Positions 24,401 through 27,245 of a DNA stretch of 64,000 nucleotides are shown in pieces. The notes under the pieces were generated by a model that saw only the letters and a list, made by a program, of their open reading frames with translations, had not been told where the DNA came from and did no database searches. The DNA is from Amoebophrya sp. A120 (taxonomy: Eukaryota > Protista > Dinoflagellata): positions 11,505,571 through 11,569,570 of the forward strand of contig CAJINV010000001.1 in the NCBI GenBank assembly GCA_905178155.1. Direction: 5' to 3'. The position numbers and the translations under genes are program-made. Every line of letters starts with the position of its first letter. The stretch's first letter is position 1.

Positions 24401-27245
24401 CAAAGTCAAAAATTTAAAAGAAAACGCACGGCACCATGAAGAAAAATCATTTTCGGAAGCTAAAAATTACGACTTTGCGTGAGAGCTACAAAAACTTCGC
24501 GTTTGCGGCCCAGCATACGCTCGTGTTTCATTTGAATAACGGCGGTATACTCAATTTATAAAATTAACTGAAAAAATCGATTACACTTCGCCACTATCCG
24601 CTCGTGATTCCATTTTCCATTCTAAAAATATTAAAAAAAAGATCTTTCAGAAATGATCGAAAACGCACGGTACCCTAATTTACCACAAATACACTTCGTA
24701 CTTGTCAAGCCTACGCTACGCTTTCAACTGGATCGCGTCGTAATTAGGTATAGTTGCATCCCAATACACGAAAATACCTTTTTCGAAAATGTCTTTGTAG
24801 GGCTCTTCGTCGCCGACGATTCCGTATACAACTGATGGTTTTGCAACTCCTGCACCAGCCACAACCGCGTTCTCGTCTTCCGCGGCGGCTAGTCTTTTCC
24901 GTGCCTCTTCCAGCGCCTGGTTCGTTGGTGGTCCGTACACTTTCCCCTCTACGCTTCCGCGCACGTACTCCATTTTGTTGCAGGTGAGCGTGCCCGTTTT
25001 GTCTGAAAACACAATCTCCACCTGCCCGAGTTCCTCCATCAGGTCCGAGTTACGGCACAGCGCGTCGCCCGTCTCGTGCTTCATGGACTCGTCTGTCGTC
25101 ACGAAATAGGCCAAAATCAACTTCGTGACCTCCATATCAAATGTAAAAATGTCTGGGTCTGGAAGAATGCAAGATTTGTGATGCAGGTTTTCCATGACGC
25201 ATGAGGTCTCGAATGCGAGATCCAGCATGACAGATTCTCTGAGGTCTCTATCACGCCTTTCCTGCATGAGAAACTCCCTCTCAACTTGGTCAAAAGCGGA
25301 CAGCTTTTGGCACTCACGCAACACAGATTTTTGCATCATTCAGATTTAGCATGACAAGTTCTAATCTTCCAGACCCAGACATTTTTACATTTGATACTCC
25401 AACGCGACGTACAAACTCATCGGAATCAAGTGCGAAAACGTCACGATGAAAACGCCAACCTGAAGTAGACCGTGATTTCGATTTCGTAATTCGAAAAAAC
25501 ACATGAAATCTTCGAAGTTGACTTTGTGCAAGTGGTCGTGGATCCTCTTCCTGCAGAGCCAACATTGATTTCTTAGTCTTTGCATTGAAGCACGACAATA
25601 TAATCCTACTCATACTCCAACAAAAGTATGAGACCATCCAATCGTTCTTGAGTTGCAGCAATGAATTACGTCTACGGTTACGAAAAGGTGGAACCTTTAT
25701 AACGAATCCGTAGAAGGACGTGTCAAATTCTCCCTTCCCGTCGGTGTCTTTAATCTGGAGGTAGTCCGCTCCGGAGTCTTTGTACTTGCTTTCCCAGGCC
25801 ATGGCGCAGATTGCGCAGGCGACGACTGTGATGAAGAGGATAAGGAACAGCCCGTAGAGGAGTTTGTTCAACACATGCTGCATATTGGGCATCTTCGCGG
25901 GGGCCTCACGACTGTTCAGCATTGCCTTGGTGTCCCCGCCGGTGTAGACCGCAAGGCCGAACACACTGTCCGTGTTGCGGAGCGTGCAACCGCGGAAGAT
26001 GATGTTGTCCAAGTTCAGTGGCGTGCTGGGCCTCTCGCCTACTTTGAAGCTTCCCTTGAAAACTGTCATGTTCTCGTGCGGGGGCTCAACAAGAACCTGT
26101 CGTTGGAATGCAACGCGTTGAATGACAAGAGAGTTGAGTGAGCGCTACACAGAAACAAAAAAATACGACTTCTAACTACGAGTAGTCGTGTCAAAAAACG
26201 AAATGGCAATTTGCGTTTTTTTCCTTGCTTTAAAGAAGAGAAACAACGCACCGCAATGAAACTGAACTCAAAACTAACCGCGCACCGCCAATTTTTGCAG
26301 GTCGTGGCTCGTCTCCGTCATTTCTGCTAAGTCTGGTGGCGCGAGCTTCAACTTCAGATTTGTTTCGCCGTCCAGATTTTTGGTGTCAATGTAGCAGTGC
26401 CCGCCACCATGGGAGGTGGACATCAGCACCAAATCGACGGGCACGCCCTCGTCCTTTTTCACTTTCACGATATCGTGCGCTTTCACCTCCGCCCACGCCA
26501 TCAATTTCCAGGTTCCGTTCTTTTGCAGTACCTCGGTTTGTCGCTCATTCTCCTTCTTGTCGGACTTTTCACGCTGGTAGTCTTCGTATCGATCTTTAGC
26601 CGCGGTCCAACAGAGCACGAAAAGAAACGTGAGTACCTGGTGGTGGTTTCGCTTTGCTTTCAGAAGTGAAGAAAGCCTGGGTGACAAAGTCATGTACGTA
26701 GTACAGCTAATACCTCTGTGTTGTATCTACTTTCTAAAATCGAAATCTATCGTTACTGTTGGCGCCGGCATCTTCGGGGAGAATGGCATCATCTGCAAAA
26801 CACAGATGATTGCGAAGTAGATGTTCGCGGACCGTCGAAACTGGAAATACACCGAATGCGGCAGCCACAGAGCGATGTAGCTCGAAAAGCGCTGCGTGCG
26901 AATCCGATTGTCCTCCTTGTAGGGGAGCGGCTCCTTCTCGTTGAACTGAGACGATATCCTTGGTCGCATATTTCGCCCGTGCGTTTCTTTTGGCTTCAGC
27001 CAACCGACAGATTCCCGCACACTTCTTGACAACCTTGAGGGTAACGGATCTTTGTGTTCCAGGTAGTCCGCGACCGTTTCCTCTTTCTGCGGCCCGAGTC
27101 CCAAACTAGACGCGACCGCGCCGGACACGCTGGCGCGTGACGAAGCCGTTTTTTCCAAGAAGCTCGTGCGCCGCGGTGTCATCTCGGCAGACGACGTGGG
27201 GTCGTGATGATCCCCAGGCGTCGAGACCGAAAGGTGCGAAGACAT
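21422..27245 (-). CDS. P4-type ATPase (phospholipid flippase), ~9 exons
   Basis: [102 protein letters not shown] introns include 26637..26756, 25460..25694 and 23310..23538; one TIR-element interruption. The extreme C-terminus could extend further by splicing. Confidence 0.95.
22419..22513. repeat. Short dispersed tandem repeat (CTAAATACGT[GATGCTGCATG]) x4 in an ATPase intron
   Basis: CTAAATACGT occurs four times; two copies extend with GATGCTGCATG. Confidence 0.8.
25135..25396. mobile_element. Introner/MITE-like element copy 2 (262 bp), in P4-ATPase coding sequence
   Basis: Perfect 32-bp TIR TATCAAATGTAAAAATGTCTGGGTCTGGAAGA and perfect 5-bp TSD CTCCA (25130-25134, 25397-25401). Removal with one TSD restores [16 protein letters not shown]. 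Confidence 0.95.

What the first reader, a model, noticed from the sequence alone, without database searches (positions are those of the whole stretch)
25130..25401. DNA-transposon-like element acting as an intron with no GT-AG solution for precise removal
Sense strand reads ...GCG T TGGAG [TATCAAATG...CATTTGATA] TGGAG GTC ACG..., within the conserved P4-ATPase stretch between TM4 and DKTGT, with TAA three codons in. The gene is otherwise intact. Sliding the cut through the TSD gives intron ends TG-TA, GG-AT, GA-TG, AG-GG, GT-GA or TA-AG, never GT-AG, GC-AG or AT-AC. TSDs differ among copies (CTCCA, GCTTG, TCRCG, TTSCG), so exon sequence supplies no fixed splice dinucleotide. Known: TIR/direct-repeat non-canonical introners are reported in Amoebophrya; to my knowledge the excision machinery is unresolved. 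They coexist here with normal introns in one gene, implying two removal routes.
Basis: partly seen in the sequence, partly recalled or inferred. Interest (0 to 1): 0.8.

Follow-up and report, generated by a model that had tools for sequence, protein, structure and literature searches.

The report
Amoebophrya transposon intron, removed precisely
A 262-base hairpin-ended, transposon-like insert interrupts a lipid-flippase gene of what is likely the marine parasite Amoebophrya and is missing to the base from spliced transcript assemblies although no GT-AG cut fits; this intron class is already published, but the cut likely falls at one fixed position, which would give its unknown removal machinery a testable rule.

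Summary
Confirmed, and of a published kind. The element (25135-25396) has perfect 32-nt inverted ends and a 5-nt target duplication, and lies in an intact P4-ATPase gene whose best hit is Amoebophrya A25. In 4 of 4 RNA-like runs (one sample) exactly 267 nt (element plus one duplication) are missing, in contigs that also lack the GT-AG introns; a DNA-like run keeps it. No GT-AG, GC-AG or AT-AC cut gives that product. Its TAT-N7-AAA end matches the A120 introner motif of Farhat et al. 2021. The window holds three copies, not four. Added here: both orientations are removed; a copy with a mismatched duplication limits the cut to offsets 3-5; a GT-CC intron in the same gene fits offset 4 (1 nt before the left TA, 4 nt after the right TA); a GT-AG pair one base away is unused; in 53 oriented relatives orientation is random and 2 have a GT-AG solution (chance). 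No transposase was found. The scan noted this system and this cut rule before in many windows of this genome.

The parts
25135..25396 (.). The element, 262 nt, non-coding, TAT...ATA ends
25365..25396 (-). Inverted arm at the 5' end of the intron (sense strand), 32 nt
25135..25166 (-). Inverted arm at the 3' end of the intron (sense strand), 32 nt
25397..25401 (-). Upstream copy of the 5-nt target duplication (TGGAG sense)
25130..25134 (-). Downstream copy of the 5-nt target duplication (TGGAG sense)
25131..25397 (-). Likely intron under the offset-4 rule (267 nt, GT...GA); the length is shown, the register is inferred
   Evidence: joint 25129>25397, skips 267, both=5, 4 of 4 runs; register from 12255 copy and GT-CC intron
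21031..27245 (-). Host gene: P4-type phospholipid-translocating ATPase, nine introns; ends read from the sequence (first in-frame ATG, stop after the last intron)
   Evidence: Pfam PhoLip_ATPase_N/C, E1-E2_ATPase, Cation_ATPase; 60% identity over 1324 columns to P0001, Amoebophrya sp. A25
25460..25694 (-). Canonical GT-AG intron 58 nt upstream of the element
   Evidence: joint skips 235 in 4 of 4 runs
24363..24777 (-). Canonical GT-AG intron downstream of the element
   Evidence: joint skips 415 in 4 of 4 runs
21123..21429 (-). Non-canonical GT-CC intron of the same gene with an unambiguous junction; TA at +2,+3 and TA at -6,-5; possibly a decayed element
   Evidence: joint 21122>21430, skips 307, both=0, 4 of 4 runs
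12255..12522 (.). Second copy (268 nt, opposite orientation) in a tubulin-tyrosine-ligase-family gene; duplication mismatched at its third base (sense CGTGA / CGCGA)
   Evidence: joint 12249>12523, skips 273, both=2, 3 of 4 runs
45256..45517 (.). Third copy (262 nt, 83% identical), perfect 5-nt duplication, just upstream of the long frame 43785-45257; removal not tested

Best explanation
This is a non-coding, hairpin-ended insert with a 5-base target duplication, likely a non-autonomous DNA transposon of the Amoebophrya A120 introner kind, that is missing together with one duplication copy from spliced transcript assemblies and is likely cut out of the pre-mRNA by a relaxed major spliceosome at a fixed distance from its paired ends. 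Steps: (1) insertion by a cut-and-paste transposase acting in trans, making a 5-bp duplication (inferred from anatomy; enzyme not found); (2) the transcript folds the two 32-nt arms into a stem in either orientation (predicted); (3) 267 nt are removed and the original coding sequence is restored (shown, about 0.93 that it happens on RNA in vivo); (4) the cut lies 1 nt before the left TA and 4 nt after the right TA, so the intron starts N-T-A like the host's normal donors from +2 on and ends on any two bases (inferred, about 0.7); (5) the cutter is a U2/U6-type spliceosome that has dropped the G+1 and AG checks and measures from the arm (inferred, about 0.55).
For: Removal: joint skips 267 in 4 of 4 RNA-like runs; contig arithmetic gives the same (917 = 415+235+267). 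The same contigs lack the GT-AG introns, while DNA-like run X1 is gap-free over 21000-25158 and 25372-31500, i.e. keeps introns and both element junctions. Need for removal: TAA before the catalytic DKTGT; junction peptide identical to the A25 protein P0001. Transposon anatomy: 105 of 123 complete relatives in a metagenome assembly have perfect 5-nt duplications, 12 more have 4 of 5. Symmetry: copies 25135 and 12255 lie in opposite orientations and both are removed; 25 vs 28 of 53 oriented relatives (p 0.78). No canonical bias: 2 of 53 have a GT-AG solution, 2.8 expected. Register: the transcript keeps the upstream duplication's third base at copy 12255, leaving offsets 3-5 and excluding GT-AC; the unambiguous GT-CC intron has TA at +2,+3 and -6,-5, which 0 of 7 canonical introns of the gene show at -6,-5. 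Spliceosome link: 5 of 7 canonical donors have TA at +2,+3; offset 4 gives GTATCA here, the same as one canonical donor; an AG one base further on (268 nt) and 13 in-frame GT/GC-AG alternatives are not seen. Farhat et al. report nearly all spliceosomal proteins present, U1 not detected, no minor spliceosome.
Against: All four RNA-like runs are one sample and one study, are assembled contigs that drop rare forms, and are marked 'RNA?' by the tool. The register rests on one mismatched copy (three offsets left) and one intron whose kinship to the elements is weak: fold z = 0.10, end-to-end inverted score 24 with 11 of 2000 shuffles reaching it, but canonical introns score up to 20. No lariat, branch point or snRNA pairing was tested. 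A 32-bp stem starting one base into the intron would hide the 5' splice site from U6 unless unwound. No transposase was found (Pfam on 36 frames; the 972-nt relative has no frame over 86 codons). [quoted passage not shown]
Confidence: 0.55

Rival explanations
1. A second, non-spliceosomal route (nuclease plus ligase reading the stem, as proposed for euglenid nonconventional introns) removes the element at a fixed distance from the paired ends, beside a normal spliceosome for GT-AG introns.
For: Orientation independence and lack of any dinucleotide bias; perfect stem; Euglena has a ruler-like code from paired motifs removed by unknown machinery (abstract and introduction of PMC12501133); a 4-nt 3' offset and a 1-nt 5' offset would also suit a structure-cutting nuclease (inference).
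Against: The GT-CC intron is removed without a strong stem; the offset-4 start equals the host's canonical donor from +2 on; the Euglena signature is absent at all six offsets (read).
Confidence: 0.3
2. The missing 267 nt are a reverse-transcription artefact: the enzyme jumps across the stem between the two direct repeats, and the real RNA keeps the element.
For: Strong stem plus short direct repeats; such cDNA-only 'falsitrons' are documented (abstract of PMC8240250); no direct-RNA data were available.
Against: Retention stops the protein before its catalytic aspartate, yet the gene is intact and 60% identical to the A25 protein over its length; 27 of 53 oriented relatives are not multiples of three after removal, so read-through cannot rescue them; the GT-CC junction has no repeat at all.
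Confidence: 0.05
3. The element is excised from the DNA of expressing cells (ciliate-IES-like or transposase-driven), so no RNA step is needed.
For: TA-ended element with a duplication is a DNA-transposon anatomy.
Against: DNA-like run X1 has unbranched contigs running from both flanks into the arms and no 267-nt joint among the 15 of 31 joint rows shown; removal co-occurs with loss of GT-AG introns in the same contigs.
Confidence: 0.04
4. The cut is not fixed but floats within offsets 3-5, or sits at offset 3 or 5, and the product is the same because the duplication makes these equivalent.
For: The one informative copy allows offsets 3, 4 and 5; Farhat et al. describe splice sites as variable relative to the hairpin (Fig. 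3 legend).
Against: The GT-CC intron fits offset 4 only, if it is an old element; 9 of 9 predominant A120 non-canonical pairs in Table S4 have T at +2, although aligner preference could cause that.
Confidence: 0.25

Closest known systems
Introner elements / non-canonical introns of Amoebophrya sp. A120 (Farhat et al. 2021, PMC7789003; seen: abstract, sections 10 and 16 whole, passages of 11, 17, 32, 34, supplement legends and Table S4 rows)
   Same: Inverted ends beginning TAT, seven variable bases, then at least three A; direct repeat of 3-5 nt over the boundary; about 240-nt size class; no transposase inside; coexists with GT-AG introns in one gene; removal supported by RNA.
   Different: Arms here are 32 nt against the 8-20 nt quoted. 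The paper leaves the intron border unknown and the machinery open; this report narrows the border to offsets 3-5, likely 4.
A120 introner families in Gozashti et al. 2025 (PMC12130899; seen: passages, and 21 of 58 A120 rows of supplementary file 8)
   Same: Families of about 250-260 bp classed as TIR DNA, superfamily unknown, with about half non-canonical ends (e.g. fam12, 331 copies, TIR 33).
   Different: The arm sequence was not found in the 13 of 14 supplementary files searched, so this family could not be matched to a numbered one.
Euglena nonconventional introns (PMC12501133; seen: abstract and introduction)
   Same: Non-GT-AG introns with paired ends and fixed spacing from the junction, coexisting with conventional introns, machinery unknown.
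   Different: Signature 5'-N3CDG...CH'GN5-6|R is absent; here the element is a recent repeated family with TA ends and a 5-nt duplication.
Fritillaria borealis non-canonical introns and Micromonas/Aureococcus introners (seen only as passages in PMC11282704 and PMC7789003)
   Same: MITE-derived introns; in the tunicate reported to be excised by the spliceosome.
   Different: Those keep specific end dinucleotides (AG-AC/AG-AT, or canonical); here both terminal dinucleotides come largely from variable target DNA.

Membership tests
Amoebophrya A120 introner element | Inverted repeat at both ends of the intron | tested here: met
   32 nt, 100%; longer than the 8-20 nt quoted
Amoebophrya A120 introner element | Direct repeat of 3-5 nt at the exon/intron boundary | tested here: met
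   5 nt; 105 of 123 relatives perfect
Amoebophrya A120 introner element | End motif TAT + seven variable bases + at least three A | tested here: met
   against the motif; TAT and AAA at 99-100% in 234 ends, though ends were selected by that motif
Amoebophrya A120 introner element | Repeated in the genome | tested here: met
   3 copies in the window; 8853 records of DNA-like run X1 laid on the stretch, piled on the element (not a copy number)
Amoebophrya A120 introner element | Removed from transcripts at non-GT-AG ends | tested here: met
   4 of 4 runs for this copy, 3 of 4 for copy 12255; one sample
Amoebophrya A120 introner element | Host is Amoebophrya strain A120 | tested here: inconclusive
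   Best hit of the host gene is Amoebophrya sp. A25 at 63%, which supports the genus; strain rests on the end motif; no genome held
MITE (non-autonomous TIR DNA transposon) | Short, TIRs, fixed-length target duplication, no coding capacity | tested here: met
MITE (non-autonomous TIR DNA transposon) | Cognate autonomous element with transposase; superfamily assignment | not testable with these tools
   No genome held; none in the window or in the 972-nt relative; Farhat et al. found none in A120
Major (U2) spliceosomal intron | GT/GC...AG ends | tested here: not met
   none of six offsets
Major (U2) spliceosomal intron | Lariat intermediate, U2/U6 dependence | not testable with these tools
   contigs only
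Minor (U12) intron | AT-AC or U12 signals with a minor spliceosome | tested here: not met
   no AT-AC offset; minor snRNAs reported absent
Euglena nonconventional intron | 5'-N3CDG...CH'GN5-6|R signature | tested here: not met
   read by eye at all six offsets
DNA-eliminated sequence (ciliate IES type; label recalled) | Absent from the DNA of expressing nuclei | tested here: not met
   X1 contigs run unbranched into both arms; rare or stage-specific excision is not excluded

The most novel reading that the evidence does not exclude
Amoebophrya runs a second splice code on its major spliceosome: N|TA at the start and TA-NNNN at the end, a 1+4 ruler read from transposon ends in either orientation and blind to G+1 and AG, so any insertion with a 5-bp duplication is born as a perfect intron and stays spliceable after the hairpin decays (the GT-CC intron).
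Probability: 0.45. Interest if true: 0.75.

Novelty: already known. Interest (0 to 1): 0.4.

Why it matters
The class is published, so the element itself is one more instance. What matters is the open question left by Farhat et al.: where these tens of thousands of introns are cut and by what. A fixed 1+4 register turns an apparently signal-free intron set into a simple code (T+2, A+3, TA at -6,-5) that can be tested with lariat sequencing and reporters, explains how a transposon family can fill coding exons at little cost, and would be a natural case of splicing without the AG rule. This gene is a handy test object: canonical introns, a perfect element with an unused GT-AG pair one base away, and a GT-CC intron in one transcript.

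Tried and rejected
Whole-genome search for an autonomous element: no genome held. Exact-seed scan for other TIR/duplication elements was mostly chance pairs; relaxed scans found no further convincing element and no TTSCG copy. Viral contigs: 0 matches to the arm. The look-up of sequencing runs listed no holder on record as RNA. No orthologous or empty site: the flippase has no tblastn hit in the 130 loci. Eight mismatched duplications among 53 oriented relatives (positions 1,4,1,4,3,3,2,1; none at 5) cannot place the cut without RNA. Orientation calls used a small codon model: 112 of 123 elements were scored and 53 kept as confident. Table S4's T at +2 in 9 of 9 A120 pairs was not counted as independent, as 8 of 9 also have A at -2, the mirror image, which points to aligner or strand effects. 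Read-through as a 3n insert was rejected (in-frame stop). The arm sequence was not found in the Gozashti supplements (file 14 not searched). A 2026 review on non-canonical splicing has 0 mentions of Amoebophrya or introners. A hAT origin (5-bp duplication, TA ends; recalled) was considered but not tested.

Full report
1. Observation. The element spans 25135-25396 (262 nt) with perfectly complementary 32-nt arms, the longest of 132 inverted pairs in the window, and a 5-nt direct repeat on both sides. Folded as RNA with flanks it gives -120.4 kcal/mol, z = -8.21, 0 of 200 shuffles as stable. The six cuts that restore the coding sequence give TG-TA, GG-AT, GA-TG, AG-GG, GT-GA and TA-AG. Three copies are in the window: 25135, 45256 (83% identical) and 12255 (70%, opposite orientation); a profile search and motif scans found no fourth.

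2. Host. Exon frames hit the P4-ATPase Pfam families. The best of 3558 hits to one exon is an Amoebophrya sp. A25 protein at 63% identity. Splicing nine introns in a script gives a 1355-residue stop-free frame, 60% identical to that protein over 1324 columns, with [19 protein letters not shown] identical across the junction and the same 52-residue spacing to DKTGT. Two of the nine introns (26097-26285, 26637-26756) were placed by contig arithmetic, not by a shown joint. The organism is therefore likely an Amoebophrya; the strain was not tested directly, as no genome is held.

3. Removal. Laying four RNA-like contig runs on 11700-25900 shows the joint 25129>25397, skipping 267 nt with five ambiguous bases, in 4 of 4 runs, 60 bases on the shorter side, at the same depths as the neighbouring GT-AG joints. 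These runs are one sample and one study, and the tool marks their RNA status as a guess; that they lack five GT-AG introns of this gene shows they are spliced. The DNA-like run X1 has gap-free contigs over 21000-25158 and 25372-31500 that keep those introns and run into both arms; no 267-nt joint is among the 15 of 31 joint rows shown. A GT-AG pair lies one base further (268 nt, frameshift; read) and 13 in-frame GT/GC-AG alternatives exist nearby, all changing the protein; none appears, though contigs drop rare forms. Raw reads X9 did not cover the gene.

4. Where the cut lies. Copy 12255 has a duplication that differs at its third base (sense CGTGA upstream, CGCGA downstream). In 3 of 4 runs the joint 12249>12523 skips 273 nt with two ambiguous bases and keeps the upstream version. 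That leaves offsets 3, 4, 5 (GA-GC, AT-CG, TA-GA) and excludes GT-AC. The last intron of the flippase gene, 21123-21429, has an unambiguous GT-CC junction in 4 of 4 runs; it carries TA at +2,+3 and TA at -6,-5, the offset-4 geometry, whereas 0 of 7 canonical introns have TA at -6,-5. Its kinship to the elements is uncertain: no stable fold (z 0.10) and a weak sub-terminal inverted match (score 24; 11 of 2000 shuffles; canonical introns reach 20). Table S4 of Farhat et al. lists nine predominant A120 non-canonical pairs, all with T at +2, which fits but may reflect the aligner. I put offset 4 at about 0.7. I wrote this hypothesis down before reading the scan's earlier notes, many of which give the same 1+4 rule for other windows of this genome; these are unreviewed AI notes and are not counted as evidence.

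5. The family. They hold 123 distinct complete elements, median 262 nt; 105 have a perfect 5-nt duplication, 12 have 4 of 5, 6 have fewer. Identity to this copy is 61-94%, median 73%. Of 112 scored, 53 could be oriented in a host reading frame with a small codon model: 25 vs 28 by orientation (p 0.78), and 2 of 53 have a GT-AG solution against 2.8 expected from shuffled duplications. So the target supplies no signal and the element works either way round, which puts the signals in the symmetric arms. No RNA was available for these loci. No match in viral contigs. No transposase was found.

6. Mechanism. Shown: element plus one duplication copy is absent from spliced contigs in both orientations. 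Inferred: insertion by a trans-acting transposase; stem formation; a fixed cut. Under offset 4 this intron is GTATCA...TGATATGGA; its first six bases equal the canonical donor of intron 22826-23056, and 5 of 7 canonical donors of the gene have TA at +2,+3. Farhat et al. found nearly all spliceosomal proteins, no U1 and no minor spliceosome. The simplest reading is one relaxed major spliceosome that reads T+2 and A+3, ignores G+1, and sets the 3' cut by distance from the arm, perhaps from a branch A at -7 in the terminal GATA (untested; short fixed branch-to-acceptor distances are known from other eukaryotes, recalled). About 0.55. A separate stem-cutting route, as for euglenid introns, stays at about 0.3; template switching and DNA excision at about 0.05 each or less.

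7. What is known. Farhat et al. 2021 (PMC7789003; abstract, sections 10 and 16, passages, supplement legends and Table S4 rows seen; supplementary figures S17-S25 are images I could not see and may bear on the register) describe introner elements with inverted and 3-5-nt direct repeats; A120 ends start TAT, seven variable bases, three or more A, exactly this element's end. They leave the border unknown and found no transposase in A120. Gozashti et al. 2025 (PMC12130899; passages and 21 of 58 A120 table rows) class similar 250-260-bp families as TIR DNA of unknown superfamily. Also seen: passages of PMC11282704, abstract and introduction of PMC12501133, abstract of PMC8240250, a null term search in PMC13149111. 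Searches listed no paper title or abstract opening that states a fixed cut register for Amoebophrya; Roy et al. 2023 (Curr Biol) was seen only as a reference, and subscription papers are not in the library.

8. Verdict. The added value is modest: one informative junction, an unambiguous GT-CC intron and family statistics that point to a ruler-type code. Interest 0.4; the ruler-on-a-relaxed-spliceosome reading has probability about 0.45 and would deserve 0.75.

Noticed in passing
window 21123-21429 (-): GT-CC intron with an unambiguous junction in 4 of 4 RNA-like runs; splicing extends the flippase by a tail that aligns with the A25 protein's end. A 367-nt contig 21093-21459 in X3 and X4 crosses the donor unspliced (retention, pre-mRNA or DNA); the retained form would stop at 21422.
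   Followed up: partly
window 13279-19031 (-), repeat-like ends near 12781-13223, 17680 and 19745: Intron-poor block with a CCCH-finger frame (16449-17639, Pfam), a 780-codon frame with a YIDD motif and a 317-codon frame; looks like a DIRS/Ngaro-type retrotransposon by eye (label recalled), but Pfam gave no RT or recombinase hit at E up to 2. Little contig cover in the RNA-like runs over 14070-17387.
   Followed up: partly
window 6775-6962 and 2743-2930: 188-nt direct repeat (86%); the copy at 6775-6962 overlaps a Pfam HicA hit (E 4e-8, residues 19-55 of frame 3408-6995), odd for a eukaryote; possibly tandem paralogues with a dsRNA-binding-like start.
   Followed up: no
element part 25312-25396, other locus: In X9 (193 reads) and in X3, X4, X6 an RNA from another locus carries an 85-nt end piece of this family with unrelated sequence inward of it: a one-armed or differently filled copy kept in RNA. 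Fits a need for both arms, but is one locus of unknown context.
   Followed up: no
L026 1501-2472; L073 1133-1531: Longer family members (972 and 399 nt) with perfect 5-nt duplications; L026 has an insert but no frame over 86 codons.
   Followed up: partly
element interior, e.g. 25177, 25225, 25349: A 9-nt motif of the TGT(C/G)ATGC type recurs inside the elements (185 hits of the top 9-mer in 123 relatives); candidate subterminal transposase-binding repeat.
   Followed up: partly
whole window: All Pfam-supported frames lie on the minus strand (TTL, flippase, CLC channel, EF-hand, proteasome subunit, TPR, ankyrin), as in the unidirectional clusters reported for Amoebophrya; only minus-strand frames were submitted.
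   Followed up: no
window 46215-46427 / 50731-50941 and 47799-47858 / 49163-49222: Dispersed direct repeats of 57-66 nt at about 4.5 kb and 1.4 kb spacing, unexplained.
   Followed up: no
window 45256-45517: Third copy lies 10 nt after a possible acceptor AG and shortly before an ATG of frame 43785-45257, upstream of the CLC channel frame; may be in a 5' UTR or first exon.
   Followed up: no
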